From NCBI GenBank assembly GCA_041653755.1, contig JBAZEU010000004.1, forward strand, positions 1 through 42,305: a stretch of DNA of 42,305 bases, read 5' to 3'. The notes beneath the pieces are model-generated. The model did not search any database. It saw only the letters and a list, made by a program, of their open reading frames with translations, and had not been told where the DNA came from. Source of the stretch: Minisyncoccota bacterium (GTDB lineage: Bacteria; Patescibacteriota; Minisyncoccia; UBA6257; UBA9933). Every line of letters begins with the position of its first letter. The first letter of the stretch is position 1. A program made the position numbers and the translations under genes. Shown piece after piece: positions 9,261 through 42,305 of this stretch.

Positions 9261-9271
9261 AAAAATTTGTT

Positions 9272-10156: not shown

Positions 10157-10177
10157 TTTATATATAATTAATAAATT

Positions 10178-11334: not shown

Positions 11335-11338
11335 ATTT

Positions 11339-13093: not shown

Positions 13094-13108
13094 AGAATAT
13101 GAAATATT

Positions 13109-13768: not shown

Positions 13769-13774
13769 ATGTTT

Positions 13775-14311
13775 TTATCGATAGTCCACTCTCCTGGCGG
13801 CTTCTTTTTGGCCGGAAAGTTTTCTGAATAATTCGAATCTTTCGGTTGATTTGACTGCCGGTGCGATTGTCCTTTCTCTTTTCGGCAGAGGATTTTTGGT
13901 AGTCGCAAGGTCTCGCCAAAGGTTTTTAATGTCTGGCATTTCAGAAAAAAAGTTTTTAAGAGATTCTCTCTTTATAACAACATTTTGCTCTTTGACTTCT
14001 CTGGTTTCTGGCAGAATGATTTCTTTGGTAATTTCTTCTCTTTGCCAGAGATAAAGCCGGGGATTTGTGAAGAAATTTATGGCGGAAACAACAACTTTTA
14101 TCAGCGGTTGGCCGTTAACTTTTATAAAGGCGAAAGCCATGGCAGCAACTATTAAAATCATAGCAATTATAATCCAAAGCCAAAACTTTAAGACGAAGAA
14201 AAGCGCAAAGCATAAAGCGCCGGCAGCGGCAAAAAACAGAAATTGTTTGATGGTTAGCGGCCCTACGATTTTATCCTCTGTCTCGATAAATTGCGGAACT
14301 TGGAATTGCAT
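13775..14311 (-). CDS. PrgI-family (VirB3-like) membrane protein
   Basis: MQFQVPQFIETEDKIVGPLTIKQFLFFAAAGAL followed by two TM helices is the PrgI-family signature. Sits immediately upstream of VirB4, as in Gram-positive T4SS. Confidence 0.65.
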   Translation of the reverse strand: MQFQVPQFIETEDKIVGPLTIKQFLFFAAAGALCFALFFVLKFWLWIIIAMILIVAAMAFAFIKVNGQPLIKVVVSAINFFTNPRLYLWQREEITKEIILPETREVKEQNVVIKRESLKNFFSEMPDIKNLWRDLATTKNPLPKRERTIAPAVKSTERFELFRKLSGQKEAARRVDYR

Positions 14312-15510: not shown

Positions 15511-15516
15511 AGGATT

Positions 15517-18137: not shown

Positions 18138-18176
18138 ATTTTTTTATAGCGAAATTTTATTTCGATATAACCTTGG

Positions 18177-26649: not shown

Positions 26650-26687
26650 AATAGTTTTTTGTTTTAGCTAAGCGCGCAAAATTCTAG

Positions 26688-26759
26688 TGGGCGCACTTGG
26701 ATTCGAACCAAGAACCTTGGCCTTATAAGAGCCCTGCTCCGCCATTGAGCTATGCGCCC
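26688..26759 (-). tRNA. tRNA with UAU anticodon (predicted tRNA-Ile, AUA-decoding)
   Basis: Reverse complement GGGCGCATAGCTCAATGGCGGAGCAGGGCTCTTATAAGGCCAAGGTTCTTGGTTCGAATCCAAGTGCGCCCA. Perfect acceptor, D and T arms. Anticodon loop C-U-UAU-A-A. The anticodon stem has a G:A mismatch and a U:G pair. Confidence 0.75.
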
Positions 26760-29812: not shown

Positions 29813-30436
29813 ATGATTATTTCTTTTTACGGCGAAGGGTGTTTTAAAATTCAATCAGGAGACCTCACCCTTTTAACAGACCCGCTTACAAAAGAGAGCG
29901 GTCTTGATGTGCCGCGATTTAAGACAGATTTGATTTTAAAAACTTTAGTTTCTTTCCCGCCCGAAGGCGAAAATTCTCATGAGTTAGTCGGTCCGGGCGA
30001 ATACAATTTCAAAGTCGCTGACAAAGAGGTTGATGTCGAAGGATTTTTTTTAAACACCGAATCAACGGATAAATTTATCAAAACGGTTTATCTGGTTGGT
30101 TTGGAAGATTTAAAACTTTGTTTTTTGGGGCATCTTTCCGAAGGATTGCCGTCAGAAATCAGCGAACGACTGGAAGAAATAGACATTTTGTTTATCCCGG
30201 CTGGCGGAGCGCCGTTTATCGACCAGAAAAAAGCAGCAGTTTTGATCAAGCAAATTGAGCCGAAAATTGTGGTGCCGAGTTTTTATAAAATGCCGAACTT
30301 GAAAAGGCCGGCTGAAGATTTGAAGAAATTTTCGAAAGAGTTTGACCATGACTCGGTCTGCGAAGAAAAATTGGTGATCAAGAAAAAAGACGTTTTAACG
30401 ATCAAGGGCACAAAAATTGTATGCCTCAAGGCCTAA
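29813..30436 (+). CDS. MBL-fold (UPF0173-like) protein lacking the HxHxDH metal motif
   Basis: MIISFYGEGCFKIQSGDLTLLTDP... matches the start of UPF0173/MBL-fold hydrolases. The position expected for HxHxDH reads DLILKTLVSFP. Confidence 0.55.
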   Translation: MIISFYGEGCFKIQSGDLTLLTDPLTKESGLDVPRFKTDLILKTLVSFPPEGENSHELVGPGEYNFKVADKEVDVEGFFLNTESTDKFIKTVYLVGLEDLKLCFLGHLSEGLPSEISERLEEIDILFIPAGGAPFIDQKKAAVLIKQIEPKIVVPSFYKMPNLKRPAEDLKKFSKEFDHDSVCEEKLVIKKKDVLTIKGTKIVCLKA

Positions 30437-30684
30437 AAAGCTTTTTAAGAAAGATACAAAATTCTGATGAAAGCGTTAAAAAAAGATATTTGCTGATTTT
30501 TTCGATTATCGCGATGGCTGTCGTGGTTGGTCTATGGGTCTTGTATCTTAGAGAAATGTCGAGCGTGGATGTTGCCAAAGAACATGAATTTTCTGTTCAA
30601 AAAGTTTTTTCTGCGGTTTCTCAATGGAGCAAAGATATAATTTTTAAAATAAGAGAAGGTCGAGTTATCAATATTGAAAGATAA
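30421..30684 (+). CDS. Small single-TM hypothetical protein
   Basis: 87-aa ORF overlapping the upstream gene by 16 nt. TM YLLIFSIIAMAVVVGLWVLYL. Confidence 0.45.
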   Translation: MPQGLKSFLRKIQNSDESVKKRYLLIFSIIAMAVVVGLWVLYLREMSSVDVAKEHEFSVQKVFSAVSQWSKDIIFKIREGRVINIER

Positions 30685-30721
30685 TTCGGCACAGCTACAT
30701 TATATATAAAGTAAATCTTAT

Positions 30722-33247
30722 ATGGTCAAAATGCCTAAAAGAGCAAAAAAAGAACTAGCCCAGCCGGCGGAAACAAAAATACAAAAGCATCAGGACCGGG
30801 AAATTTCCGAAGAACTCCAAGAATGTTATTTGGATTACGCAATGAGCGTGATTGTTTCCCGCGCTTTGCCTGACGCTCGTGACGGGTTGAAACCAGTTCA
30901 AAGAAGAATTTTATGGTCAATGTGGGATATGGGTTTGGGCCATGGCGCCAAACTTATAAAATCCGCAAGAGTAGTCGGAGAAGTAATGGGGAAATATCAT
31001 CCTCACGGCGATATGGCGATTTACGATACCTTAGTAAGAATGGCTCAAGATTTTTCTTTGAGGTATGTGTTAATTGACGGTCAGGGAAATTTTGGAAGCA
31101 TTGATGGCGATGCGGCTGCCGCCCAAAGATATACCGAAGCGCGGCTCTCGAAAATTTCCGAAGAGATGCTTGCGGACATTGAAAAAGAAACCGTCGATTG
31201 GCAGCCGAACTATGATGCCAGCCGGGTTGAGCCGAAAGTTTTGCCGTCAAAACTGCCGAATTTATTGCTTAACGGCTCAATGGGGATTGCGGTTGGTATG
31301 GCTACCAATATTCCTCCGCATAATCTGAACGAAATTATTGACGCCATTTTTTACCTAATTGAGAATTCTGACGCTTCGACTCAGGAACTTTTCAAGTTTA
31401 TTCAGGGCCCGGACTTTCCAACCGGCGGTTTGATATTCAATAAAAAAGCCATTATGGAGGCCTATAGCGCTGGCAAGGGGCCGATCACTATGCGGGGCGT
31501 TGCCACAATAGAAGAAACCAAAAATAACCAGTTTTCTATTATTATCACCGAGATCCCCTACCAAACCAATAAAGCCGAACTGATTTTAAAGATTGCCCAA
31601 TTGATTACTGACAAAAAAATTGAAGGTATTCGAGACATTAGAGACGAATCAGACAGAGAAGGATTAAGGATCGTAATTGAAGTAAAATCAAATGCGCCAA
31701 CCCAAAAGATTTTAAACCAGCTTTACAAATTTACCGAGCTTCAAAAAGATTTTCATTTGAACATGATTGCCCTTGCTGACGGCATTCAGCCGCAGACGAT
31801 GTCGTTAAAAGATTTGCTTTCGGCCTATCTTGAACATCGCAAGGTTGTTGTCAGAAAACGAACAGAATTTGAACTAAAGAGAGCAAAAGAAAGAGCGCAT
31901 ATTCTGATGGGTTTGGTTAAAGCGCTTTCGATAATCGATGAGGTTATTAAAACTATCAAAAAATCTAAAGATCGGCAGGATGCTTTTAATAATTTAATCA
32001 AGAAGTTTAAATTCAGCGAGATTCAGGCCAATGCGATTTTGGAAATGAAATTGCAGACATTGGCTAACCTTGAAAGACAGCGCCTCGAAGATGAATTAAA
32101 AGAGAAAAAGAAATTAATCGCTGAATTGGAATTAATTTTGAAAGAGCCGAAAAGAATCTTGAAAGTCATTAAAGAAGAGCTGACGGAAGTGAAAGAAAAA
32201 TACGGCGACGAAAGAAAAACCAAAGTTGTTTCAACCGGATTGCAGGAATTTAACGAAGAGGATTTGGTCCCTAAAGAAGATGTAATAATTACTCTTTCCA
32301 ATACGGGCTATATTAAAAGAGTTGTGCCTTCAGCTATCAAAGCGCAAAATAGAGGAGGGAAAGGAACAATCGGTTCTGAACTTGGCGAAGAAGATTTTAT
32401 TGTCCAATTTTTACGGGCGAACACTCACGACAATATTTTATTCTTTACTGATAAGGGCAGAGCTTTCCAGGCCAAGGTTTATGAAATCCCGGTTGGCACT
32501 CGAATTTCCCGCGGAAAATTAGTTCATAACTTTTTGGATTTTCCGGCTGAAGAGAATATATCCGCCATTATCAGTTACCCGGCGACCAAACCTGCCCGCA
32601 ATGCTTCGCGCAGCGATGCAGGCGGGGACGAAAAAGAATTAAGTAATCAATTCTTAGTAATGTGCACATATGGCGGAATGATTAAAAAAACGCCAATTTC
32701 TGATTTTCAGAATGTCAGGCGCAGCGGCATCGTTGCCATGTCCTTAAAGAATGGCGATCTTTTGAAATGGGTAAAAATGTCTTTGGGCAAAGACGAGGTC
32801 ATTATTGCTACCGCTAAGGGTCAAGCAATCAGGTTCAAAGAAAGCCAGTTGCGACCAATGGGCCGTCAGGCCTCGGGCGTAAAAGCTATCGGTCTGAATA
32901 AAGATGATTTTGTGGCAGGGCTTGATATAATTAAAGGAGAGCAGAAGACCGCCAAAATCTTAGTAGTAATGGAAAATGGTTTTTCCAAGCAAACGCCTTT
33001 GTCTTCTTACCGTCTTCAATCCCGAGGAGGTAAAGGGATAAAAACCGCCAAGGTTACGGCTAAAACCGGTCAAATCGTGACTGCTAAAGTTTTAGCTGAA
33101 GAGGAAGAAGTGTTCGCGTTATCGTCTAAAGGCCAAATCATCAGAACCAAGATTTCTAATATTAGAACCGCCTCAAGAGTTTCACAGGGAGTCAAGATTA
33201 TGAAGTTGGAAAAAGATGATAAGATTGCCGGAATCGTCGCCATCTAA
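30722..33247 (+). CDS. gyrA: DNA gyrase subunit A
   Basis: [32 protein letters not shown], catalytic Tyr in [12 protein letters not shown]-terminal beta-pinwheel repeats. Confidence 0.95.
32595..32626. repeat. GC-rich imperfect hairpin embedded in frame in the gyrA C-terminal domain
   Basis: CCCGC-AA-TGC-T-TCGC-GCA-GCGA-T-GCA-G-GCGGG. Encodes [11 protein letters not shown] within an otherwise AT-rich gene. Confidence 0.5.
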
Positions 33248-33271
33248 TAAAATATATCGAAAAAAATTTAT

Positions 33272-34549
33272 ATGAATTTTTCAAAAAAACAAATTACTAT
33301 CGTCGGAGGAATCGCGATTATTGTCTTGCTGATTGTCCTGGCGATTATCTTCGGCCGGGCCGCTCCAACCAACCAAAAAGAAATTACCCTAACGGTGTGG
33401 GGCGTTGGCGACAGCGAAGATGTTTTAAGACCGGTTTTTGAAAGTTATCAGAAAAGCCATTCTAAAACTAAAATTCAATATACCGAATTTAACGAAGCTG
33501 ATTACCAGAAATCTTTGATTAACGCCTTAGCCGCCAATAATGGCCCGGATATTTTTATGTTTCATCGTTCTTGGCTGCCGGCTAATGCCGATAAAGTTCT
33601 AGTTTTTGATAAGACAAAAATTTCTCTCAATAAATTAAGAGATCTTTTCCCGAAAGCAGTAGAACAAGATTTCTCTTATGGTGAAAATATTTATGCGCTT
33701 CCTTTATATATAGACACACTAGCAACTTTTTATAACAAAGATATTCTTGATAACTCGGCCATCGCAATACCGCCCAAGACCTGGGACGAATTTAAGCTTT
33801 TGATTTCAAAATTAAGAAAACTTGATCCGAAAACTAACTCTATTATCAGAGCGGCTGGAGCTATCGGCGGTTCTAATGATAGCATTCATAGCGCCTCGGA
33901 CATTTTCACTCTCATGGCGATGCAAGAAGGCGTTAATTTCCCGAAGAATTCCGGAGAAAGATTAGCTTTTGGCAACAAAGGGCAGAATGCATTGAATTTT
34001 TATCTGGAATTCACTAATCCGAAAAGCTTGATTTACGCGTGGGACGACGCTTTTAATTATTCGTTGGATGCTTTTGCGAATGGACAATCGGCGATAATCT
34101 TTGACTATCAGCGCACCATAGATGTCTTAAAAAAGAAGAATCCCTATCTCAATATTGGCATCGCTCCAATGCTTCAGTTCAATTTGGACAGTAAAGTGAA
34201 CTTTGCCGATTATTGGGGACTGGCAGTTTCTAAGAAAAGCCAGAATCCGTCAGCTGCCCAAGATTTGATATTGGCCTTAACAACAAACGAAGCCTATGCC
34301 AAAGCTTATTTGCTATCAAGCGGTCGGCCGCCAGCATTGAGAAGTTTGATTAATAAATATCAAGATGATCCTTCTTTGGGTGTTTTTGCGCAACAAGCGC
34401 TTTCTGCTAATTCTTGGTATCAGGTTGATAGTGATTTTATCAGCCAAACCTTTTCTGATATGATAGAATCAGCGTTAGCCAAGCAGGTTTCGATAAAAGA
34501 TGCCCTTGAAGTGGCGGAAAATAAAGTTAATTCGTTGATACAACCATGA
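33272..34549 (+). CDS. Extracellular solute-binding protein (ABC sugar-binding family 1-like), TM-anchored, orphan
   Basis: N-terminal TM then ITLTVWGVGDSEDVLRPVFESYQKSH...NGPDIFMFHRSWL, typical of family-1 SBPs. No permease or ATPase gene nearby. ATGA overlap with the next gene. Confidence 0.75.
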   Translation: MNFSKKQITIVGGIAIIVLLIVLAIIFGRAAPTNQKEITLTVWGVGDSEDVLRPVFESYQKSHSKTKIQYTEFNEADYQKSLINALAANNGPDIFMFHRSWLPANADKVLVFDKTKISLNKLRDLFPKAVEQDFSYGENIYALPLYIDTLATFYNKDILDNSAIAIPPKTWDEFKLLISKLRKLDPKTNSIIRAAGAIGGSNDSIHSASDIFTLMAMQEGVNFPKNSGERLAFGNKGQNALNFYLEFTNPKSLIYAWDDAFNYSLDAFANGQSAIIFDYQRTIDVLKKKNPYLNIGIAPMLQFNLDSKVNFADYWGLAVSKKSQNPSAAQDLILALTTNEAYAKAYLLSSGRPPALRSLINKYQDDPSLGVFAQQALSANSWYQVDSDFISQTFSDMIESALAKQVSIKDALEVAENKVNSLIQP

Positions 34550-34962
34550 AAAAAATAATTTCAATCCCAGTTCTTTTTTCCGCTTTATATCTTTTGCTTT
34601 CTACTCCGGTTTTTGCTGCCGGTTTAGTTCCTTGTAGCGGAGCCGATTGCACTTTTAATTGTTTCATGAAGATGTTTCATGATATTCTCTATAACTTGGT
34701 TTTGTTGAAAATCGTTATTCCTTTGGTCGTGGTTACGATTGTTTGGGGAGGTTTTATGATGATGTTTTCTGCTGGAGATCCTAAAAAAGCCGAAACCGGC
34801 AAAAAAATTATTACCAGCGCCGTAGTTGGAGCAGTTATTGTTTTTTGCGGCTGGCTGATCGTTAATCTTCTTTTTTCTGTATTGGTGAAGCCGAGCGCTT
34901 TAAGCCAAAGTCCACTGCTGGAAGGAAGTCATTGGTATAACGTAAGAATCAGTTGTCCTTGA
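34546..34962 (+). CDS. VirB2/TrbC-like T4SS pilin paralogue 1
   Basis: Signal peptide (...STPVFA|AG). TM1-WGGFMMMFSAGDPKKAETGKKIITSAVVGAVIV-TM2. Confidence 0.65.
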   Translation: MKKIISIPVLFSALYLLLSTPVFAAGLVPCSGADCTFNCFMKMFHDILYNLVLLKIVIPLVVVTIVWGGFMMMFSAGDPKKAETGKKIITSAVVGAVIVFCGWLIVNLLFSVLVKPSALSQSPLLEGSHWYNVRISCP

Positions 34963-34992
34963 TTTTAGAATTAAAACAATTAGAATTTTATT

Positions 34993-35376
34993 ATGATTAA
35001 AAAAATAGGACTATTTTTATTAGCTGCTGCTCTGCGTTTCCAGTTTGCCTTGGCTGACGGGGGAGGTCAAATTCCTGGCGGAGGCCAAATTCCTTCTGGA
35101 GAAAGTTCCGGCGGTTTTACCAATCCTCTGAATTTTGGGAGTATTGAAGAACTTTTAAAGGGTCTTTCCAACTGGGCAATAACCATCTCTACTCCAATCG
35201 CCGCCTTGATGATTATCGTAGGCGCTTATCAGCTTTTGTTTTCTGCTGGTAATCCTGACAAGGTTAAAACTGGCAGGCAGACCATCCTTTACACCGTGAT
35301 TGCTTATGCTATAATTTTATTGGCTTGGGCCCTTGCTCATGGAGTGGCTGAGCTTATCGGAGCAAAAACGAGTTAA
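34993..35376 (+). CDS. VirB2/TrbC-like T4SS pilin paralogue 2
   Basis: Signal peptide. TM1-VGAYQLLFSAGNPDKVKTGRQTILYTVIAYAIIL-TM2. Own promoter-like TTGATT-16-TAGAAT (34959-34986), with the -10 ending 6 nt before the ATG. Confidence 0.65.
   Translation: MIKKIGLFLLAAALRFQFALADGGGQIPGGGQIPSGESSGGFTNPLNFGSIEELLKGLSNWAITISTPIAALMIIVGAYQLLFSAGNPDKVKTGRQTILYTVIAYAIILLAWALAHGVAELIGAKTS
35062..35097 (+). repeat. 18-nt tandem duplication in pilin paralogue 2
   Basis: GGAGGTCAAATTCCTGGC / GGAGGCCAAATTCCTTCT encoding GGQIPG-GGQIPS just after the signal peptide. Confidence 0.7.
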
Positions 35377-35424
35377 ATAAAAGGTCGAGACGAAAACGAA
35401 CTATTTTATTTTAAATTTAATCAA

Positions 35425-35754
35425 ATGAAAATTAATTACAAAAAAATATTTCCACTTCTTTTGTTATCGCCTTCAGTAGTATTAGCTCAAATGGGAGTAA
35501 CCTCAGAAAATGTTCCAGAATCGGTTAACCTGACTAACATTATTACGGACGTTATTAATTGGGCGTTCGGTTTGTTGATTCTTTTAGCGGCAGTTTTTAT
35601 TATCATTGCGGCTTTTATGTATTTGTCTAGCGCCGGCAATGAGGATAAAATAAAAAACGCTAAAAATTACATCATTTATGCTGCGGTAGCGATTTTAATC
35701 GGGTTCTTAGCAAAGGCCATCGTTACACTTGTAACACGACTTCTTGGCGTTTAA
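35425..35754 (+). CDS. VirB2/TrbC-like T4SS pilin paralogue 3
   Basis: Signal peptide (...VVLA|QM). TM1-IAAFMYLSSAGNEDKIKNAKNYIIYAAVAILIGF-TM2. Confidence 0.65.
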   Translation: MKINYKKIFPLLLLSPSVVLAQMGVTSENVPESVNLTNIITDVINWAFGLLILLAAVFIIIAAFMYLSSAGNEDKIKNAKNYIIYAAVAILIGFLAKAIVTLVTRLLGV

Positions 35755-35781
35755 TATTGGCTTCTAATATTTTTAAATTGA

Positions 35782-35819
35782 AAAACCCCCGAGAACTTTT
35801 TAAGTTTCTCGGGGGTTTT
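35782..35819. terminator. Bidirectional intrinsic terminator
   Basis: AAAA-CCCCCGAGAA-loop-TTCTCGGGGG-TTTTGTTTT between convergent pilin 3 and the SPFH operon. Confidence 0.75.
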
Positions 35820-35834
35820 GTTTTGCGAGATGTT

Positions 35835-36275
35835 TTACGAAATCGGATCGTGGTTAATTATTATTTGAACCACTCCTCCAGTTTCATTATAAAAACTCAT
35901 CTCTGGCGTAATTACTCCGAAGTCGTCCGTGATGAATCCTTCCTCCCCGTTAGCAAATCGCACTCGGGTGTCGGTAGGGCCTTCAAGGTGGAAGTATGCT
36001 CCGGCCGGACCTTCAAATCTTTTTGACTTGCTCCATTCTCCGGGCGTAAGAATTACTTCTTTCGTCTCGGGCAGAGCTTTAACGGTTTGGGCTTGAGCGG
36101 TCTGGATTTGAGCTTGGGATTGGTGGGTTTTAGCTTTGTTCGAAGCGGAATGGATGATCCCGACAACAATTATTAAGCTGATAATTGTCAGGAATCCCCA
36201 TTTTGTCCAGCCAGGGATGGATTCGAGTTGTGGTTTTTCTTCTTGCAGTTTCTCTTTTTTTTCGGTTTCAGCCAT
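35835..36275 (-). CDS. Membrane-anchored hypothetical protein, partner of the SPFH protein
   Basis: 8-nt overlap with the SPFH gene end. AAGGAG (36282-36287) 6 nt upstream of the ATG. One TM (WGFLTIISLIIVVGII). NfeD-like role is only a positional guess. Confidence 0.5.
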   Translation of the reverse strand: MAETEKKEKLQEEKPQLESIPGWTKWGFLTIISLIIVVGIIHSASNKAKTHQSQAQIQTAQAQTVKALPETKEVILTPGEWSKSKRFEGPAGAYFHLEGPTDTRVRFANGEEGFITDDFGVITPEMSFYNETGGVVQIIINHDPIS

Positions 36276-37302
36276 TTTCTTCTCCTTTTCTGGGCAAGGC
36301 CGGATTTATCAAAAGAATCGGTCTAGCTTTTTGGTCGCCGGACAAACTAATGTCCTGAAACGTTCTTGTTGCTTTCCCTCTTTCGGCCATTACCGTTTTA
36401 AGGGCTTCTTCGTCAGAAATACCCGGTATAAGACCTTTCAGTGTTTTTACCAGATTCCCGACGTTTGTGATTTCGACCATTTCTCCTTTTGCCTGTTTTT
36501 CTTCCTTCGCGGCTAAGTCGGCATCTTTTGCAAATTCATCAGTCGGTTTTATCTCGCCGATATTTAGACGGACAAGTTTGACACCGAGTTGCTGGAGTAA
36601 GATTCCTCCATTGCCTTGACGGATTTCTGTCACGATCTTTTTTCGAACGGCCAATTCTTCTTTTAGCTGGGCTTTTTCTTCTTGAGAGAGCGCTTCATGC
36701 CACTCCTCAATTTTTTCCCAGTTTGTTCCGAACGAATTTTCTTCGTACTTCGTGGGTGGTTTTGGAGGCGTATTGAAATATTTGAAAAGAGAGTTTGTCG
36801 GGAAAGGCGAGTTTATTTTTTTAATTTTTTCTCCGGCAAGCGCCTTTATCAAAATTTCAACCGCTTCTTCCCCAGCAGACATCGCTTCGTCATAATCCGC
36901 CGGGCCTTCTCCCACCGCTCTGGTCCACATCCTTCCTTTTTCTTCGAGGATTTCTTCAAGGATGGTAAAGACACCATTTTCTCCGCCATTGTCCAAATAC
37001 TGGATTAAATTTTTCCCATCCGGGACAACAGTCAGAGAAATTGGAACTTCGATTGGAACATTGTCTGGTGTTCGCAAGTCTTTAATCGGGAAATCTTTAT
37101 TCTTTTTACGCATATCCACAAGAATTACATTGCTGATAAACGGAAACCCGAATAAAAAGCACCATCCTTCTCTTATAATTTTATTGGTTCTTCGACCGAA
37201 AATGGTTAAGAGACCAATATGCGGGGGGTCGTTTGGAATCTTTTTTAACCCCGAAAAAACAATCCACACAAGCGCGAGAACTACTAAAGCTAAAACATTC
37301 AT
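36268..37302 (-). CDS. SPFH/Band 7 (stomatin-prohibitin-like) domain protein
   Basis: N-terminal TM then GLKKIPNDPPHIGLLTIFGRRTNKIIREGWCFLFGFPFISNVILVDMRKKNKDF...VPISLTV, an SPFH-type core. AGGAGG (37309-37314) 6 nt upstream of the ATG. Confidence 0.65.
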   Translation of the reverse strand: MNVLALVVLALVWIVFSGLKKIPNDPPHIGLLTIFGRRTNKIIREGWCFLFGFPFISNVILVDMRKKNKDFPIKDLRTPDNVPIEVPISLTVVPDGKNLIQYLDNGGENGVFTILEEILEEKGRMWTRAVGEGPADYDEAMSAGEEAVEILIKALAGEKIKKINSPFPTNSLFKYFNTPPKPPTKYEENSFGTNWEKIEEWHEALSQEEKAQLKEELAVRKKIVTEIRQGNGGILLQQLGVKLVRLNIGEIKPTDEFAKDADLAAKEEKQAKGEMVEITNVGNLVKTLKGLIPGISDEEALKTVMAERGKATRTFQDISLSGDQKARPILLINPALPRKGEENG

Positions 37303-37483
37303 TTTACTCCTCCTTATAGGTTGAATTCATTTTTATTTCTGCGAATAGATGTTTTTCAAGGTGCAGCTTTTATTCTTTATAATATACCATAAAGATTTTA
37401 AAAAGTCAATCCCTCACCCTTTTAGTAAAAAGGATAAGGGATGGAGTGTTCTTCCGGTTTTTGCTAAGATATTTGTACGTTTT

Positions 37484-37565
37484 GCTCCCGTGGCGGAATT
37501 GGAATACGCGCAGCGCTTAGGACGCTGTCCCGCAAGGGTTAGAGGTTCGAGTCCTCTCGGGAGCA
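37484..37565 (+). tRNA. tRNA-Leu (anticodon UAG), class II with long variable arm
   Basis: GCTCCCGTGGCGGAATTGGAATACGCGCAGCGCTTAGGACGCTGTCCCGCAAGGGTTAGAGGTTCGAGTCCTCTCGGGAGCA. Anticodon stem CAGCG/CGCTG, loop CT-TAG-GA, variable arm CCC-GCAA-GGG. Confidence 0.9.
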
Positions 37566-39113
37566 CAAGCGTTGAAATAAGGCAAGAGAAAGTCCGTTTT
37601 GTCCATTGTTTACGCCGTATTCTTCAGGTTCTAACCTCTCCATTTCCTTATCAATACCCCTTAACCCTTCCTCAAGGATAAGTAAAGGTTTTTTCGCTTG
37701 AATAGTGAGTTTTTTGTCTTTCAGGAAAAGGTTCGAACCAATCCATTGAAGAACGTCCCTTTTATCTTCCGAGAGACCATCCCGAAACGTCTCTCTGCCT
37801 TCGTTGGCAAAAATCAGGGTTTTCTCGGTTAATTCAACAGCTCTTCTTCCATAGTTAATTCCCTCTTTCAATCTTTTCTCTATTCGCATCTTTTCTTCGA
37901 TCAATTTTTTCTTTTCACCGAGATATTCCGAATCGTCAATCAGGTCTTTGAATCGCATCTGGTTCAAGTTATGAAGTTTCGTCTGGCAACCCACGGCTGC
38001 TTTTTCCAGGGTTCTTTGAATGTCGAGACACCCCTTATTTTCTTCGTCCAGCATTTTCTCCAAATACTCTAACGCCGGATTAAGGAATGTTTTCGACACG
38101 TAAATCTTATCGAGATATTCCAAAACCTGCAATTCTAAATTCGTAAGATTTATTGACTTTTGACGACAGGTGGAACCCCTCTTTTTCCAGGTGCAGTGGT
38201 AATAGGTGTAGTGATATCCGTAGCGATTCTCTTTTTCTTCCGCGGTAACCATACAGCCGCATTCTCCACATCTTATCAGTCCGGTAAAAGCGAATTGATG
38301 TTTTTTTGGCCTTGGTCTTCCCTTCCTGCCCAAAATCTCCTGAACTTTCCAGTATTCCTCTTCTGTAATCATCGGCTCGTGTTTTCCCTGAAAAACACCT
38401 TCTTTTCTTTCAATCAGTCCGTAATAAAAGGAATTGCCGAAGATTTTGTAAATACAGGCCCGGCTTAAGGGCTTGCCGCCGCTCTTTTTGTGAGTTCTGG
38501 TTTTAAAACCCCATTCCTCATTAACGGTCTTCAAGATTTTTAGCGGAGACATACCCTGAAGCAAAAGGTTCCACATCTTACGGATAAGAAGAAATCTTTC
38601 CGGGTCAGGAATAATAGTCCTCTCTTTTGGTTCATTGAGGTATCCCAAAGGCGGAAGTCCAGGAAACCACCCTTTTTCGAGTTTGGCACGGTTACCTCTT
38701 TTCACGTTATCGCTTAGATCGTCCACATATTTTTTGGCCATGCCGAATTCCAGTTGCATCAAAAACTTATCATTGCTGTTGTTGAGGAAAGTATTGATTG
38801 GAGTGACTATTTCGGAAATATTCCCTTGGTCCAAAGCCCAGACTAGAGATGAGCCGTCAATGGGATTTCTGGCTAATCTATCAAGCTTCCAGACGATGAT
38901 TCCCTTAACCTGCCTGCCATAGATTTTTTTCATCATAGCGTTAAAAACCGGCCTTCCCGGTGATTTGGCGGAACGCGACTCTGTTAGAATTTCAGAAACA
39001 TTCAACTTCAACCTATCGGCCAGTTCTTTCAGCTCATTCATTTGGGACTCAATGGAAAGGATTTGTCTTTCTTCAGACTCGGAGGATTTACGGCAATAGA
39101 TGATATAGGACAT
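37539..39113 (-). CDS. Large serine recombinase (integrase)
   Basis: Resolvase catalytic domain IIYCRKSSESEERQILSIESQ...WKLDRLARN, recombinase domain, zinc-ribbon CGECGCMVTAEEK...YYHCTWKK, coiled-coil C-terminus. The last 27 nt overlap tRNA-Leu. Confidence 0.85.
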   Translation of the reverse strand: MSYIIYCRKSSESEERQILSIESQMNELKELADRLKLNVSEILTESRSAKSPGRPVFNAMMKKIYGRQVKGIIVWKLDRLARNPIDGSSLVWALDQGNISEIVTPINTFLNNSNDKFLMQLEFGMAKKYVDDLSDNVKRGNRAKLEKGWFPGLPPLGYLNEPKERTIIPDPERFLLIRKMWNLLLQGMSPLKILKTVNEEWGFKTRTHKKSGGKPLSRACIYKIFGNSFYYGLIERKEGVFQGKHEPMITEEEYWKVQEILGRKGRPRPKKHQFAFTGLIRCGECGCMVTAEEKENRYGYHYTYYHCTWKKRGSTCRQKSINLTNLELQVLEYLDKIYVSKTFLNPALEYLEKMLDEENKGCLDIQRTLEKAAVGCQTKLHNLNQMRFKDLIDDSEYLGEKKKLIEEKMRIEKRLKEGINYGRRAVELTEKTLIFANEGRETFRDGLSEDKRDVLQWIGSNLFLKDKKLTIQAKKPLLILEEGLRGIDKEMERLEPEEYGVNNGQNGLSLALFQRLCSREDSNL

Positions 39114-39141
39114 GAATTGGACAAATTAATGATCCCTAATC

Positions 39142-39354
39142 CTACATATTTTTAGGATTTTGGTCAACTGTCGGGAATGATGGCGTATCGGATTCCGGAT
39201 TTCGACCTTTTTTGTAACGTGGATAAAGAATTGCCTTCAGAAGATAGACCAAATTCAGAAATCTCTCACAGGCCTCCTCTCTTGAGATTTCTTCTCCGAA
39301 CTCTGTAAGATAATTCTTTCGGAATTCTTCGATTGTTTCATCGCTTGGTTTCAT
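39142..39354 (-). CDS. Small hypothetical protein upstream of the recombinase (possible accessory or directionality factor)
   Basis: 70-aa ORF co-oriented with the recombinase, 28 nt upstream. No family recognised. Confidence 0.4.
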   Translation of the reverse strand: MKPSDETIEEFRKNYLTEFGEEISREEACERFLNLVYLLKAILYPRYKKGRNPESDTPSFPTVDQNPKNM

Positions 39355-39605
39355 AGTTATTACCTTAAGCGTAAAGGAACAAGGAGAAAATCAAAGACGT
39401 GAAAATATGGCTCAAGGAAACAGTATCACCGGTCTTTTGTGTGAAAAACTTTTCGGGCAAAATATAAAAAAGGGTCAGTGACAGAAAAAATTCATCCGAT
39501 TGATGTCTTAATCCAAAAGTTGTCCACACCGAAGGATTAAAAACCTGCACGCTCGCGCAGTTTTTTCCGTCTTGTGAGGCTGGTCCTGATTGAACAAAAT
39601 TATTA

Positions 39606-39905
39606 TTGATGAACAAGAAAAAAATTATGGTTGCGTCAAACAAAAAACCTAGAATCAATAACTGTCTCCGACAATGCCGGAAATCAATGAGATACACACA
39701 GGAAGATGTCGCCTATATGTTGGGCGTGAGAGCGAGAGCCATATCCAACTGGGAACGAGAAATTACGCATCCCAGCCTGGCGAATGTTCTGAAACTATCC
39801 TATGCCTACAACCGGCTGGTTGACCACCTGTATTACGATCTCTCGAAAACATTCCGGCACGAAATAAAAGCCAGAAAGAATAAATTATTCCCGCCCAATG
39901 AATGA
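39606..39905 (+). CDS. XRE/Cro-type helix-turn-helix transcriptional regulator
   Basis: LRQCRKSMRYTQEDVAYMLGVRARAISNWEREITHPSLANVLKLSYAY is the HTH_XRE signature. Confidence 0.75.
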   Translation: MMNKKKIMVASNKKPRINNCLRQCRKSMRYTQEDVAYMLGVRARAISNWEREITHPSLANVLKLSYAYNRLVDHLYYDLSKTFRHEIKARKNKLFPPNE

Positions 39906-40650
39906 CAACAACCCGAAAAATAAAATATGGTGGAGACCATTATGGACAGGGCTGGTCAGAGATTTTACAGGTAAGCATTCAAAGAAGTTAAAAGTCAGCG
40001 TCTGGCTACTTTTATACCTTTTTCTTTCAGCCGATTATGGCACCGGAGTTTTTTCCGGAAGTTATTCCGAAATCAGTTGGAGTATGGGCAGAAGCAAAAG
40101 CACTATCAGAAAGTGGCTGAAGACCCTGGAAAGATACGAATACGTCGCAGCAGTCCGACAAGGGAAGAAACTCCTTATTCGCATCCAGAAGTGGAAAACC
40201 ATCAGCAAGCGTCCAAGTCTGGGCACCATTGAAAAAGAAAGTGTCCAGATTAGAGCAGGTAATGTATCCGAATTTGGACACATCGGGAAATCACTAAAAG
40301 GTCGAAAAGAGTATTATTCAAGCCAAAAAATCAAAAACAAAGGTCGTTACGACGACATAGATAATAATATAAATAAAAACGTCGTTAATAACGTCGTACG
40401 TAATTTAACTTCTATGAACAACGAAAACGATTCGCTTTACACTAAGGACGAACTCCTGGCCATGGAAATCAGCAATGGCCTAAATGACAAAGAAAACCTG
40501 AGGGCTTACCTCTCCCTCTGCCGGAAGTATCCGGAACCCTTCTTAAGAAAGGTCTACAAAGAGGTAAAAGAACTGCCGATTGAGAAGATTAAAAAATCAA
40601 GAGGCGCATTATTCACTTACTTAATTCAAAAACTATGCCGAGAAAAATAA
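39898..40650 (+). CDS. Winged-helix DNA-binding protein, possible replication initiator of the element
   Basis: SYSEISWSMGRSKSTIRKWLKTLERYEYVAAVRQGKKLLIRIQKW (wHTH-like). 8-nt overlap with the HTH gene. C-terminal SRGALFTYLIQKL is reminiscent of Rep-protein tails. Weak assignment. Confidence 0.35.
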   Translation: MNDNNPKNKIWWRPLWTGLVRDFTGKHSKKLKVSVWLLLYLFLSADYGTGVFSGSYSEISWSMGRSKSTIRKWLKTLERYEYVAAVRQGKKLLIRIQKWKTISKRPSLGTIEKESVQIRAGNVSEFGHIGKSLKGRKEYYSSQKIKNKGRYDDIDNNINKNVVNNVVRNLTSMNNENDSLYTKDELLAMEISNGLNDKENLRAYLSLCRKYPEPFLRKVYKEVKELPIEKIKKSRGALFTYLIQKLCREK

Positions 40651-41162
40651 AACGCAAGAAGAGACCAAAAGAAGAAACCATTATAGCAATCGACCCCGGA
40701 ACCCGTTATTGGGGAGTCGCCATCTTCAGAGACAACACCCTCAAAAGTTCGCTGGTTAAGGTATTAAAAACCAACGGCTCGCCCAGGAAACGGCTGGACG
40801 AGGTCCGAAAGATATTTATCTCCCTGCTCAACAGTTACGAGCCCGACATTCTGGTTCTGGAGAAACCGTTCTTCTTCTGGAGCAAGCAGTCCAGATTCCT
40901 GGACGTGGTGGTGGAAGAAGTAAAATCCCTGGCCAGAAAAAACAGAATGAAAGTCCATGAGTACTGCCCCAGAACCGCCAGAAAGATTGTCTGCGGCAAC
41001 GGCAATGCTTCCAAAAGCGAGACCGCCAAACTGCTGTCAGCTTTGTATCCCGAATTATATGTCTACCTGAACCAGAACAGAAAGTACAAAGACAGATACT
41101 GGGGACATATGTTTGACGCGGTGGGGTTAGGGGTGTGTTATCTGAAAAAAACGGGAAAATAG
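40635..41162 (+). CDS. RuvC-like Holliday junction resolvase (element-encoded paralogue)
   Basis: IIAIDPGTRYWGVAIF (Asp), ILVLEKPFFFWSKQS (Glu), KIVCGNGNASKSE, HMFDAVGLGVCY (Asp). Same motif order as the chromosomal RuvC at 763-1308. Confidence 0.7.
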   Translation: MPRKIKRKKRPKEETIIAIDPGTRYWGVAIFRDNTLKSSLVKVLKTNGSPRKRLDEVRKIFISLLNSYEPDILVLEKPFFFWSKQSRFLDVVVEEVKSLARKNRMKVHEYCPRTARKIVCGNGNASKSETAKLLSALYPELYVYLNQNRKYKDRYWGHMFDAVGLGVCYLKKTGK

Positions 41163-41242
41163 GAAACTGCTCTTTCCGAAACTTGCGGTTATGGATTAAA
41201 ATATAATTTTAGCTTCAGAAACCGGAGATAAGGAGGATCGGA

Positions 41243-42163
41243 ATGCTGTGTCCTCACTGTGGTCACAAAAACGAAGAGGGGATTAGGTTCTGTACCGGTT
41301 GCGGAGAACTGCTGGGTGGCAGAGCGCGGAGTCACGCAACAGGAACGGCTAAAACCAGAATACCGGTATGGATTCAATCCATAATTGGAAAAGGTTTTTT
41401 ATTAGTTCTCTCCGTAATTGTCATCGTTTTGCTAATTTCAATAACTTTAGCCATACACCGAGCTTCGCATCGTCCGGCTCCTCCGGGAATTCCTTATTCA
41501 TCCTCTCCTCTACCCTCTCCTGCGCCACCAAGGGAAAGCGTTCAAGTGCCGGTGCCCGCAGTTACTGAATCATCTCCACCTTCTACTCAAACCAACGCCG
41601 TAGAAAAAAAACCTGTTGCGCCACCGGAAAAAGAAAAGGCTGTTGAAAAATCAGTTCTTGTAGACCGGGACTTGGACAAATTCATTAATCTTCCGGCAAA
41701 AACAGAAGAAGAATTCAAGAAATTCAAACAAGACGAAGGCTGGCGATTACTTCAAACGATAGGCCTGAATATTCAATTTGATCAGCTTTGTCGGAAAGCC
41801 GAGGACGCTAACAAGAATCACGATTGGCGGGAAGTGATAGACCTCTATACGAAAGCGTTGCAAACATATCCATACTATGACGCTTACTTCCGCATCGCCA
41901 ACAGTTACAACCAACTCAACCAGCCGGACAAAGCGCTGGGGTGGACATACATAGGAATTCAAAAGTTCCGGTATAACCTGTTCTACGAAATCGCGGCCGA
42001 AGCCTACTGCAAAAAAGGAGACGAGACACGAATGTTGGCATGGCTGGAAGGCGCGCTGAAAAGCGGATTCAAAACAAGCAAAGAAGGGTTGGACAGAACT
42101 TTTTCCCGATACAAAGACGAGCCGAAGTATTTGTCCTTACTTCAGAAATATGACCTGAAGTAA
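41243..42163 (+). CDS. Zinc-ribbon / TM / proline-rich linker / TPR-like repeat protein
   Basis: MLCPHCGHKNEEGIRFCTGCGELL (double CxxC), TM GFLLVLSVIVIVLLISITLAI, P/S-rich linker, helical repeats with TPR-like YxxAL...P patterns. AGGAGG (41231-41236) 6 nt upstream. Confidence 0.6.
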   Translation: MLCPHCGHKNEEGIRFCTGCGELLGGRARSHATGTAKTRIPVWIQSIIGKGFLLVLSVIVIVLLISITLAIHRASHRPAPPGIPYSSSPLPSPAPPRESVQVPVPAVTESSPPSTQTNAVEKKPVAPPEKEKAVEKSVLVDRDLDKFINLPAKTEEEFKKFKQDEGWRLLQTIGLNIQFDQLCRKAEDANKNHDWREVIDLYTKALQTYPYYDAYFRIANSYNQLNQPDKALGWTYIGIQKFRYNLFYEIAAEAYCKKGDETRMLAWLEGALKSGFKTSKEGLDRTFSRYKDEPKYLSLLQKYDLK

Positions 42164-42175
42164 AAGGAGGTTCAA

Positions 42176-42305
42176 TTGCCGATACTGAAAAGAGACGAAA
42201 TCAAAGAGGAGTGGTCGGTTTTAATAGAAGGCGCCCAGGGAAGAGCCGGATATATTTTGGGCACTACGGGAAACGCCATAGACCGGTCAAATGTGCCGGA
42301 CATAA
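42176..42305 (+). CDS. Hypothetical protein, 5' fragment (runs off window)
   Basis: TTG start 5 nt after AAGGAGG (42164-42170). Open frame reads (M)PILKRDEIKEEWSVLIEGAQGRAGYILGTTGNAIDRSNVPDI... Confidence 0.35.
   Translation, partial: MPILKRDEIKEEWSVLIEGAQGRAGYILGTTGNAIDRSNVPDI

What the first reader, a model, noticed from the sequence alone, without database searches (positions are those of the whole stretch)
37484..42305. Integrated prophage/IME-like element at tRNA-Leu(UAG) using a large serine recombinase
The 524-aa large serine recombinase reads into the tRNA; its last 27 nt overlap the tRNA 3' end. This is the geometry expected if the element supplies the 3' part of the tRNA at attL. 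tRNA targeting is classically a tyrosine-integrase trait, so a serine recombinase here is unusual. The layout (int, small ORF, divergent control region, Cro-like HTH, wHTH Rep-like, RuvC-like resolvase, then SD-bearing genes of unknown function) mimics a temperate-phage early region. Mobile elements of CPR bacteria are poorly described.
Basis: partly seen in the sequence, partly recalled or inferred. Interest (0 to 1): 0.66.

Follow-up and report, generated by a model that had tools for sequence, protein, structure and literature searches.

The report
Serine-integrase element inserted at tRNA-Leu end
A mobile DNA element sits at the 3' end of a tRNA-Leu gene, and relatives indicate that its serine integrase uses the tRNA's T-loop as half of its target, with the element's own attachment site inside the end of the integrase gene, so insertion swaps the enzyme's last helix for a few codons read off the tRNA.

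Summary
A 524-aa large serine recombinase (LSR) gene converges on tRNA-Leu(UAG) and overlaps its last 27-28 nt. It is followed by a small ORF, an HTH repressor-like gene, a DnaD-like wHTH gene, a RuvC-like gene and a zinc-ribbon/TPR gene.

The region is foreign:
- its depth is about 8x against 19x for the flank;
- it is absent from near-identical host DNA in landfill metagenomes;
- its composition is an outlier.

It is not demonstrably a prophage. No relative was found in IMG/VR, GenBank phages or PLSDB, and two relatives carry a TraG/VirD4-like ATPase and defence cargo.

More than 20 relatives read into 14 different tRNAs in one frame. Near-identical gene pairs, and two loci with both ends, show only an 8-9 bp repeat at the CCA/acceptor end. 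They also show an orphan LSR C-terminal tail at the far end. Therefore attP lies inside the LSR gene.

The T-loop TCGAAC motif lies exactly 5 bp closer to the junction than the tail's GTT(C/A)GAAC motif, which is the known attB/attP offset.

The window's own far end is missing, because the contig ends. The finding is a new variant of a known kind.

The parts
37484..37565 (+). tRNA-Leu(UAG), intact. On this reading it serves as the B' half of the attachment site in attL.
   Evidence: ARAGORN; Rfam RF00005 at 54.9 bits.
37545..37550 (+). T-loop GTTCGA, which is TCGAAC on the LSR strand. It lies at nt 19-24 counted from the CCA position and is the inferred zinc-ribbon-domain motif of the B' half-site.
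   Evidence: Sequence. The motif sits at the same position in all tRNA-fused relatives. It is 5 nt nearer the junction than the tail motif of attP-type relatives. The 5-bp rule comes from PMC3783163.
37561..37568 (.). Inferred crossover zone of attL: the last 4 nt of the acceptor strand, the discriminator A, and CAA at the CCA position.
   Evidence: Homology with the closest relatives stops at 37564. The assembly graph of the source run branches after 37566-37569. Core repeats in relatives are TGGCGGAGA (L065), TGGGTCGT (L062) and TGGTGGGC (L089/L090). The placement here is an inference by homology.
37539..39113 (-). Large serine recombinase, 524 aa, in its integrated (tail-swapped) form. The last ~9 codons (CSREDSNL*) are read from the antisense tRNA. 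The family's C-terminal helix (W-x3-VEDVRTF...) is missing.
   Evidence: Pfam, PHROG, PDB relatives SPbeta and A118 integrases, tail comparison, AF2 model of relative P0002.
39142..39354 (-). 70-aa ORF directly upstream of the LSR on the same strand. Its first ~45 residues are conserved next to the LSR in relatives from at least five phyla. It is a candidate directionality factor or regulator (inference).
   Evidence: tblastn hits in L001 and L003-L008, among others, at 43-63% identity, always just upstream of the LSR. No family match.
39355..39605 (.). Divergent intergenic region between the small ORF/LSR operon and the HTH gene.
   Evidence: ORF map. Promoter-like matches do not exceed chance.
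39606..39905 (+). XRE/Cro-CI-type HTH regulator, 99 aa.
   Evidence: PF01381 at 6.4e-11; repressor PHROGs. Homologues lie at the same place in many relatives.
39898..40650 (+). Winged-HTH (HTH_36) protein, 250 aa, similar to DnaD-like helicase loaders and replication initiators.
   Evidence: PF13730; phrog_186 and phrog_428; conserved in relatives.
40635..41162 (+). RuvC-like Holliday-junction resolvase, 175 aa.
   Evidence: PF02075 at 6e-11; phrog_159 at 1e-20. There are 1-2 copies in about 40 related loci.
41243..42163 (+). Zinc-ribbon, proline-rich linker and TPR protein, 306 aa. Probably membrane-anchored cargo or an accessory gene.
   Evidence: PF13240 and TPR. A homologous gene sits at the same place in L085.
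42164..42305 (+). Start of a further element gene, cut by the end of the contig. The element continues beyond the window.
   Evidence: 76% DNA identity to L085 2849-2989, which is the start of a 185-aa gene following the zinc-ribbon gene.

Best explanation
Window 37.57-42.3 kb is the recombinase-proximal end of an integrative, probably mobilizable or conjugative, element. It was inserted by its own large serine recombinase at the extreme 3' end of tRNA-Leu(UAG).

In this LSR clade, the element's attachment site (attP) lies inside the 3' end of the LSR gene. The crossover falls at or just after a conserved Trp codon. That codon occupies the position of the tRNA's CCA. The right half-site of attP (P') is the DNA that encodes the conserved C-terminal peptide VEDVRTF, with consensus GTT(C/A)GAAC.

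The chromosomal site (attB) uses the tRNA gene itself as its right half-site (B'). B' consists of the acceptor 3' strand, the T stem, and the universal T-loop sequence, which reads TCGAAC on the LSR strand. That motif lies exactly 5 bp closer to the crossover than in P'. Solved large serine integrases place their zinc-ribbon domain in attB versus attP with the same 5-bp offset.

Integration therefore has three consequences:
- The tRNA stays intact, because only the CCA-position and discriminator end is exchanged.
- The LSR reading frame is fused to the antisense tRNA, giving a short new tail and stop (...CSREDSNL* here).
- The last 25-40 codons, a predicted terminal helix, are moved to the far end of the element (attR). 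Excision would rejoin them.

Shown directly:
- the geometry in the window;
- the insertion polymorphism or foreignness of the region;
- the breakpoints, short core repeats and orphan tails in relatives;
- the 5-bp offset;
- the DNA-level constraint on the tail motif.

Inferred:
- that the window's own attR carries the orphan tail;
- the exact crossover dinucleotide;
- that the motif is bound by the zinc-ribbon domain;
- any regulatory role of the tail swap or of the 70-aa ORF.
For: 1. Foreign or polymorphic DNA.
- In the source run, depth is 18.9x up to the tRNA and 7.5-8.3x beyond it. A second branch leaves the graph right after the tRNA end.
- Three landfill metagenomes hold the host flank with 0-1 differences in most contig pieces but not the element.
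- Element GC is 43.0% against 38.8% for the host. The tetranucleotide distance exceeds all 33 host windows, z = 3.3.
- The host flank is core chromosome, with gyrA, ftsH and dnaA.

2. A conserved mobile module. The LSR, small ORF, HTH, wHTH and RuvC genes recur together in Nitrospirota, Thermodesulfobacteriota, Zixibacteria, Acidobacteriota, Patescibacteria and other phyla, with 60-80% LSR identity.

3. The tRNA association. LSR homologues read into tRNA-Val, Gln, Asn, Gly, Asp, Tyr, Lys, Ser, Pro, Arg, Glu and Leu. The arrangement is always convergent and always in the frame that reads the T-loop as E/D-S-N.

4. Breakpoints.
- L089 and L090 are 95% identical over 2074 nt up to ...GCTTGGTGGGC. 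L089 then continues as antisense tRNA and L090 as the VKDVRTF tail.
- The same breakpoint is seen for the window against L082-84 and for L061 against L068.

5. Both ends in one locus.
- L065 has attL (tRNA-Ser) and, 10.6 kb away, attR. The repeat is 9 bp (TGGCGGAGA), followed by an in-frame orphan tail IVDDVRTYW...*.
- L062 has an 8-bp repeat plus an orphan tail.
- Both L065 junctions lie inside independent Logan contigs.

6. The offset. TCGAAC lies at nt 19-24 in every tRNA arm and T(C/A)GAAC at nt 24-29 in every tail. This matches the 5-bp ZD-motif shift of PMC3783163.

7. DNA-level constraint. In 49 unique tails, Val is GTT in 45 of 46 cases and Arg is CGA or AGA in 44 of 49. DVRT is invariant in 50 proteins.

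8. The tail forms a confident terminal helix (residues 511-535) after a disordered linker in an AF2 model of a relative.
Against: - The window lacks its far end, so its attR and orphan tail are unseen.
- Two scans of JGI metagenome contigs found neither the candidate empty-site flank nor the host flank.
- The host-element link crosses an 83-nt tRNA whose k-mers are shared with other organisms (depth up to 180x). The 19x versus 8x depth could therefore also mean that the element sits at the identical tRNA-Leu end of a rarer relative, joined chimerically.
- Only two loci show both ends. The other 13 of the 15 tRNA-adjacent loci scanned show none within the at most 10 kb of upstream sequence available. 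Three further tRNA-fused loci found later also show none.
- About 80-85% of homologues keep an intact tail, some in Mb-size chromosomal contigs (L007, L015). Under the model this needs tandem arrays or another mode of residence, and that is only partly documented.
- No excision or circle junction was detected in reads.
- The left half-sites show no clear symmetry.
- No biochemical data exist for this clade.
Confidence: 0.7

Rival explanations
1. Classical tRNA island geometry. The crossover lies well inside the tRNA, the element carries a copy of the tRNA 3' half, and a direct repeat of 20-45 nt marks attR. The overlap of the integrase ORF with the tRNA would be incidental.
For: The LSR ORF overlaps the tRNA 3' end. 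The graph branch point after the tRNA end is also what an identical element-borne 3' copy would give.
Against: - No repeat of 11 nt or more of the tRNA occurs in up to 10 kb upstream in 15 relatives.
- In L065 and L062 the repeat is only 9 and 8 bp.
- Near-identical LSR genes diverge within 8 nt of the CCA position.
- Window homology to L082-84 stops at 37564.
Confidence: 0.07
2. The element is a temperate prophage whose early region is seen here. The integration mechanism could be the same as in the best explanation.
For: The layout of integrase, repressor-like HTH, DnaD-like protein and RuvC-like protein is typical of phage early regions, and all four match PHROG families.
Against: - No relative of the LSR was confirmed in 2.9 million IMG/VR contigs.
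- The best GenBank phage identity is 27.5%.
- No structural or packaging gene appears in any related locus inspected.
- L090 and L091 carry a TrwB/TraG-type coupling ATPase.
- The complete L065 element is 10.6 kb of restriction-modification and ATPase cargo.
Confidence: 0.1
3. Assembly chimera. The element is attached to the same tRNA-Leu 3' end in a different, rarer organism, and the assembler joined it to this chromosome through shared tRNA k-mers. There would be no insertion in this genome.
For: Depth is 19x against 8x. The tRNA interior has depth up to 180x from other organisms, and the host unitig ends inside the tRNA at 37533. The composition differs.
Against: - A unitig (37537-37709, 8.3x) directly joins 30 nt of exactly this tRNA's 3' part to the element. 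The 38-nt node 37529-37566 (15.3x) is consistent with the element branch (8.3x) plus a second branch whose depth was not reported.
- A subpopulation insertion is the simpler reading.
- Either way, the LSR-tRNA fusion itself is real.
Confidence: 0.12
4. A static, domesticated recombinase gene that happens to neighbour tRNA genes, with no mobility.
For: Many homologues sit in large chromosomal contigs with intact genes.
Against: - The region is absent from near-identical host DNA.
- 14 different tRNAs are involved.
- LSR identity is 60-80% across phyla.
- L065 and L062 have flanking core repeats with a split gene.
- L065-like element DNA at 95-99% identity occurs in other metagenomes where most of its host flanks are missing or barely covered.
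Confidence: 0.03

Closest known systems
Phage and element large serine integrases (A118/LI, SPbeta SprA, phiC31, Bxb1)
   Same: They share the three-domain architecture of catalytic, recombinase and zinc-ribbon domains with a coiled coil. They share short att sites with a tiny common core. The right half-sites here show the 5-bp outward shift of a conserved motif in attP relative to attB that is described for LI integrase (PMC3783163).
   Different: Identity to any GenBank phage or PLSDB plasmid homologue is below 30%. The target is the 3' end of tRNA genes rather than a protein-coding gene. In a well-studied mycobacterial set, tRNA sites go with tyrosine integrases (PMC10654092). Here attP lies inside the integrase's own coding sequence, so the enzyme has different C-termini in the free and integrated states.
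SSV1-type ('suicidal', class I) tyrosine integrases of archaeal viruses and plasmids
   Same: The att site lies within the integrase gene, the target is a tRNA gene, and the gene is partitioned by integration (PMC8371274).
   Different: The catalytic family is unrelated (tyrosine). The review describes the SSV-type integrase gene as fragmented upon integration and calls these integrases 'suicidal'. That review also calls the type exclusive to archaea. Here only the last 25-40 codons are removed, a new stop is supplied by the tRNA, and the hosts are bacteria.
Tyrosine-integrase genomic islands and prophages at tRNA 3' ends (P4/Islander type)
   Same: The target class is the same, and the integrase gene lies next to the intact tRNA.
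   Different: Those elements carry a copy of the tRNA 3' segment and leave a direct repeat tens of nt long. Here the repeat is 8-9 bp.
Integration-dependent immunity of mycobacteriophages (BPs, Charlie; own knowledge of Broussard et al. 2013, not checked here)
   Same: attP lies inside a coding gene, so integration changes the C-terminus of the product. The target is a tRNA.
   Different: There the split gene is the repressor and the integrase is a tyrosine recombinase. Here the split gene is the serine integrase itself. A regulatory consequence is not shown.
ICEs and IMEs with serine recombinases (streptococcal ICEs/IMEs; Tn5397-like)
   Same: They are integrative elements with an LSR and, in relatives L090 and L091, a T4SS coupling protein.
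   Different: No relaxase was identified, the targets differ, and the core module (two RuvC-like genes, DnaD-like wHTH) differs.

Membership tests
Large serine recombinase (serine integrase) | N-terminal resolvase catalytic domain with the nucleophilic serine | tested here: met
   PF00239 at 1.8e-18 over residues 4-148. R8-K9-S10 in YCRKSS is nearly invariant in the family alignment.
Large serine recombinase (serine integrase) | Recombinase domain plus a zinc-ribbon domain with an embedded coiled coil | tested here: met
   PF07508 and PF13408; invariant Cys282, 285, 307 and 316. The AF2 model of relative P0002 shows long helices at 342-446 after the ribbon. The nearest solved structures are the SPbeta and A118 integrases.
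Large serine recombinase (serine integrase) | Short att sites with a minimal common core and an attB motif shifted 5 bp inward relative to attP | tested here: met
   This was tested on relatives, for the right half-sites only. The core is 8-9 bp, with TCGAAC at nt 19-24 (tRNA) against nt 24-29 (tail). The left half-sites are unclear. The window's own attP and attR are not available.
Large serine recombinase (serine integrase) | Unidirectional attP x attB recombination, reversed by a directionality factor | not testable with these tools
   This needs an assay. The conserved 70-aa upstream ORF is only a candidate.
Temperate prophage | Virion and packaging genes (terminase, portal, capsid, tail) | tested here: inconclusive
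   None appears in the 4.7 kb present or in about 10 kb of several relatives. The window is cut, so absence cannot be proven for this copy.
Temperate prophage | Relatives in virus collections | tested here: not met
   None confirmed in IMG/VR. The best GenBank phage hit has 27.5% identity.
Integrative conjugative or mobilizable element | Relaxase and/or coupling protein and a T4SS, or an oriT | tested here: inconclusive
   A TrwB/TraG-like ATPase occurs inside related elements L090 and L091. No relaxase was found, and nothing of the kind lies in the window's 4.7 kb. The host itself has a VirB4-like cluster.
tRNA-integrating genomic island of the classical (Islander) type | Intact tRNA at one end and a displaced tRNA 3' fragment as a direct repeat at the other | tested here: not met
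   No repeat of 11 nt or more in 15 relatives. Only 8-9 bp is shared in L065 and L062. The window's far end is missing.
SSV-type partitioned integrase | att site inside the integrase gene, with the gene split on integration | tested here: met
   Tested on relatives: L089 against L090, and L065 and L062.
SSV-type partitioned integrase | Tyrosine recombinase fold and catalytic residues | tested here: not met
   The protein is a serine recombinase. The resemblance is in how it works, not in membership.

The most novel reading that the evidence does not exclude
The clade is a self-splitting serine integrase system with two protein states, full-length when free and helix-less when integrated, that can use any tRNA through T-loop mimicry. 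The same enzyme may also drive integron-like arrays. In at least 9 loci, an intact LSR gene is followed on the same strand by 1-2 orphan 'tail' sites (X|P'). These sites bound 1-3.5 kb cassettes that lack a recombinase and carry defence or toxin-antitoxin genes. The left arms of these sites are conserved between cassettes and even between phyla. Such cassettes could be excised by attP x attB-type recombination and captured by attL x attR-type recombination at the integrase gene's end.
Probability: 0.25. Interest if true: 0.85.

Novelty: new variant of a known kind. Interest (0 to 1): 0.72.

Why it matters
- It would explain how a serine integrase can exploit tRNA genes. These are the safest and most universal landing sites, and so far they are associated with tyrosine integrases. 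The proposed means is reading the invariant T-loop as a ready-made attB half-site.
- It would give a bacterial, serine-family counterpart to the archaeal integrases whose att site lies within their own gene. Here the design keeps the enzyme's core intact.
- The clade is large (thousands of metagenomic members), shares 60-80% identity across distant phyla, and is unrepresented among studied phages and plasmids.
- It moves restriction and defence cargo in CPR bacteria, whose mobile elements are poorly known.
- tRNA-end-targeting serine integrases with predictable sites could also be useful integration tools.

Tried and rejected
- A search for a long direct repeat of the tRNA in the window and in 15 relatives found none.
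- An exact-protein look-up found nothing for the window LSR and nothing for P0004.
- A look-up of the Band7 flank protein returned only short Logan contigs that stop before the tRNA.
- Two scans of JGI metagenome contigs found nothing. One used the alternative branch sequence after the tRNA and the other a host-specific 24-mer upstream of it.
- The IMG/VR scan returned no confirmed relative.
- Laying contigs of four runs on L065 confirmed both junctions. It gave no empty-site or circle joint. The two long 'skips' listed were spurious matches between different tRNA-Ser genes.
- I tried by eye to find dyad symmetry between the left and right half-sites, and to classify the X arms of orphan sites as attB-type or attP-type. 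The offsets were inconsistent (5, 6 or 7 nt), so this was abandoned.
- The promoter and terminator scan around the junction did not exceed chance.
- I considered and rejected the idea that the conserved VEDVRTF peptide is only a protein motif. Synonymous positions are fixed.

Full report
**1. The observation**

The window carries tRNA-Leu(tag) at 37484-37566 by ARAGORN and at 37484-37565 by Rfam, with 54.9 bits. A 524-aa ORF lies on the opposite strand at 37539-39113. It has the three Pfam domains of a large serine recombinase (LSR): Resolvase, Recombinase and Zn_ribbon_recom. It matches the PHROG integrase family phrog_95 at 9e-74. Its nearest solved relatives are the SPbeta and A118 integrases.

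The ORF runs 27-28 nt into the tRNA and ends ...LCSREDSNL*. Those last codons are the antisense of the acceptor stem and T arm.

- a 70-aa ORF;
- a divergent intergenic region;
- an XRE-type HTH gene;
- an HTH_36 / DnaD-like protein;
- a RuvC-like resolvase;
- a zinc-ribbon/TPR protein.

The window is the whole contig, so the element runs off its end.

**2. Is it foreign DNA?**

Three lines of evidence say yes.

- In the metagenome that holds the contig, the host side has a word depth of 18.9 up to the tRNA. The element side has 7.5-8.3.
- A 38-nt node covering the tRNA 3' end (15.3x) splits immediately after 37566-37569. One branch is the element (8.3x). The other reads CAACGATGACTTTTTAACTC..., a candidate empty site.
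- Three landfill metagenomes hold the host flank, with 0-1 differences in most contig pieces, but essentially none of the element.

The host flank is core chromosome, with gyrA, ftsH, S1, dnaA and PBP1. The element has 43.0% GC against 38.8% for the host. Its tetranucleotide distance is larger than that of all 33 host windows, z = 3.3.

One caveat applies. The link between host and element crosses an 83-nt tRNA whose k-mers are shared with other organisms (depth up to 180x). The depth ratio therefore means one of two things. Either about 40% of cells carry the insertion, or the element sits at the same tRNA-Leu end in a rarer relative and was joined by the assembler. In both cases the LSR-tRNA fusion itself is real, because one unitig contains both.

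**3. What kind of element?**

The LSR belongs to a very large clade. There were 5080 hits at E <= 1e-20 among the candidates scored. Identity is 60-80% across Patescibacteria, Nitrospirota, Thermodesulfobacteriota, Aminicenantes, Bacteroidota and others.

The module of small ORF, LSR, HTH, wHTH and one or two RuvC-like genes travels with it in dozens of loci.

Evidence against a phage:
- No relative was confirmed in IMG/VR.
- The best identities in GenBank phages and PLSDB plasmids are below 30%.
- No virion gene was seen in any related locus.

What the relatives do carry:
- L090 and L091 carry a TrwB/TraG-type coupling ATPase plus restriction-modification genes.
- L001 carries a radical-SAM Hxs-like set.
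- The complete 10.6-kb element in L065 carries a C5-methylase, R.HinP1I, Vsr and two ATPase genes.

'ICE/IME-like integrative element with defence cargo' therefore fits better than 'prophage'. A relaxase was not found, and the window copy is cut.

**4. The tRNA association**

A convergent tRNA abuts or overlaps the LSR 3' end in the window and in L001, L031, L042, L046, L048, L050, L052, L054, L057, L059, L061, L062, L065, L078, L081, L089, L091, L095 and L096. The same holds for second LSR genes in L063/64, L066 and L071.

Fourteen tRNA species are involved: Leu-tag, Leu-gag, Val-tac, Val-cac, Gln, Asn, Gly, Asp, Tyr, Lys, Ser, Pro, Arg and Glu. The hosts are mostly CPR bacteria.

In all but two of these loci, the ORF enters the tRNA in the frame that reads the T-loop as E/D-S-N, or stops just before it in that frame. 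In L062 the LSR is truncated. In L078 the frame was not determined.

Among the 120 best homologues, about 10% have such tRNA-derived tails. About 80-85% instead end with a conserved W-x3-V-E-D-V-R-T-F peptide.

**5. Where the junction is**

- L089 and L090 carry LSR genes that are 95% identical over 2074 nt. Identity ends at ...GCTTGGTGGGC. L089 continues GTGAGAGGAATCGAACC, which is the antisense tRNA 3' end, and its ORF stops as WWA*. L090 continues CACAGTGAAGGACGTTAGAAC..., which encodes the tail TVKDVRTF....
- The window and its closest relatives (L082-84, 79% DNA identity) diverge at 37564, two bases from the tRNA end.
- L061 (tRNA-Gln) and L068 diverge 9 nt into the tRNA.

Two loci contain both ends.

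- L065: attL reads ...CCCACT|TGGCGGAGA|GGGTGGGATTCGAACC (tRNA-Ser). At 10.6 kb upstream, attR reads ...AAAACCGAG|TGGCGGAGA|ATCGTGGACGACGTTAGAACC... Joining the two restores an in-frame LSR ending ...PTWRRIVDDVRTYWQTT...*, and an intact tRNA with its own flank.
- L062: TGGGTCGT is repeated, again with an orphan tail on the far side.

The L065 junctions each lie inside an independent Logan contig at even depth.

The shared core is thus 8-9 bp covering the CCA position, the discriminator and the first acceptor bases. Intersecting the cases puts the crossover at nt 4-8 from the CCA position. This explains why the search for repeats of 11 nt or more found nothing.

**6. Mechanism**

Count from the first base of the CCA position on the LSR strand.

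- The T-loop TCGAAC occupies nt 19-24 in every tRNA arm.
- T(C/A)GAAC occupies nt 24-29 in every tail, counted from the Trp codon at the same position.

A constant 5-bp inward shift of a conserved motif in attB relative to attP is what Rutherford et al. described for the zinc-ribbon-domain motif of the LI/A118 integrase (PMC3783163).

The tail motif is constrained as DNA, not only as protein. In 49 unique tails:
- Val is GTT in 45 of 46 cases. The Val two codons earlier uses GTG or GTA.
- Arg is CGA or AGA in 44 of 49 cases.

DVRT is invariant in 50 proteins from many phyla.

I conclude that attP sits in the last 60-100 nt of the LSR gene, that its right arm is the VEDVRTF-coding DNA, and that tRNA genes are used because their acceptor and T arm mimic that arm at attB spacing.

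An AF2 model of the relative P0002 (mean pLDDT 80) shows the tail as a terminal helix, residues 511-535 with pLDDT 81-87, after a disordered linker at 492-510. Integration removes this helix and replaces it with a few tRNA-encoded residues. Whether that changes activity or directionality is not known. The conserved 70-aa ORF upstream is a candidate partner.

**7. Consequences for the window**

The window shows the attL end in the integrated state.

- The tRNA is host DNA apart from at most the discriminator and CCA-position end.
- The LSR is the helix-less form.
- The predicted attR, beyond the contig end, should carry an orphan tail next to a few nt of the tRNA end and then the flank CGATGACTTTTT...

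The prophage label and the expectation of a repeated tRNA 3' segment are not supported.

**8. Unexplained**

Most family members keep an intact tail, some inside Mb-size contigs. Under the model an intact attP in a chromosome needs explanation.

Part of the answer may be tandem accretion.
- L067 has two tail-intact LSRs 6.9 kb apart, with tails 94% identical.
- L063/64, L066 and L071 have an upstream LSR followed by a second LSR fused to a tRNA.
- L093 has an LSR fused to three successive T-arm fragments.

In addition, orphan tails lie downstream of the LSR gene on the same strand in L002/82-84, L004, L007, L014, L019, L029, L044, L058, L060 and L093. The LSR is tail-intact in all of these except L093, where it is fused to tRNA fragments.
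- Their left arms are conserved between copies and between L004 and L007, which come from different phyla.
- The 1-3.5 kb between them holds cargo without a recombinase: Beta_protein plus ImmA/IrrE, a SocA/Panacea toxin-antitoxin pair, an AAA_13 ATPase, a methylase plus a dCTP-deaminase-like gene, and an IS5 transposase.

These look like LSR-less cassettes bounded by attachment sites. I could not decide between decayed tandem elements and a genuine cassette system.

**9. Comparison and novelty**

It works like a large serine integrase and passes that family's sequence tests. It resembles the archaeal SSV-type tyrosine integrases in having the att site within the integrase gene and a tRNA target. 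A review calls that arrangement exclusive to archaea (PMC8371274).

It differs from classical tRNA islands in the length of the repeat. Full-text searches found no description of tRNA-end or T-loop targeting by serine integrases, or of such elements in CPR bacteria. The library is incomplete, so priority cannot be asserted.

I rate it a new variant of a known kind.

Noticed in passing
L007 15096-15133 and 16288-16328; L044 13877-13908 and 16455-16492; L004 5924-5963; L019 14268-14455; L029 13630-13743; L014 12534-12571; L060 12938-13132; L058 19388-19492; L082 3825-3865: Orphan copies of the LSR C-terminal 'tail' (core plus GTT(C/A)GAAC plus the rest of the tail) lie downstream of intact LSR genes on the same strand. 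They bound 1-3.5 kb segments that have defence, TA or IS genes and no recombinase. The left arms are conserved between copies and between L004 and L007. This may be an integron-like cassette array or decayed tandem elements.
   Followed up: partly
L093 11545-11700: The LSR is fused to a tRNA 3' fragment that is followed by two more T-arm-like fragments (GGAATCGAACC, GGGAATCGAACCC, GAGATTCGAACC), with no complete tRNA. A second, unrelated LSR gene and Shedu, DUF4365 and Panacea genes follow. This looks like a much-used integration hot spot.
   Followed up: partly
L015, L019, L022, L023, L026 at about 9903-9933; L039 8928-8950: Weak matches to the tail-site profile, mostly in inverted orientation (both orientations in L015 and L022), lie 70-100 nt upstream of the LSR start codon in several loci. 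They might be an LSR binding site for autoregulation. E-values were 0.04-6.5, so this may be chance.
   Followed up: no
window 8166-19832: The host chromosome carries a T4SS-like cluster with a VirB4/TraG P-loop ATPase (11339-13093) and a DUF4141 protein. T4SS-pilin-family genes lie at 34546-35754, a few kb from dnaA (4903-6270). This could be relevant to the uptake or transfer of elements like this one.
   Followed up: partly
window 26687-26759: A tRNA-Ile with anticodon TAT is present. Most bacteria use a lysidine-modified CAT tRNA for AUA.
   Followed up: no
window 30000-37441 vs runs X2-X4: The host flank occurs in a groundwater metagenome and in several landfill metagenomes from other studies, with 0-1 differences in most contig pieces. 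This CPR lineage is therefore widespread and very clonal over this region.
   Followed up: no
L084 4436-4545 and L085 10128-10215: A ~110-nt non-coding stretch ending in a ribosome-binding site and ATGGGAGAAA is conserved (82%). In L084 it lies directly after the LSR stop. In L085 it lies 1.9 kb further down, behind three small genes. In L084 the short ORF it starts runs into an orphan tail that matches L085's LSR tail better than L084's own.
   Followed up: partly
L095 3078-3683: A 201-aa Phage_integrase (tyrosine recombinase) gene or fragment lies inside an LSR element that is fused to tRNA-Glu.
   Followed up: no
L065 1-70: A second type-II tRNA, apparently tRNA-Ser(TGA), lies about 950 nt from attR and is cut by the locus edge. 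It caused spurious long 'skip' joints in the read layout.
   Followed up: yes
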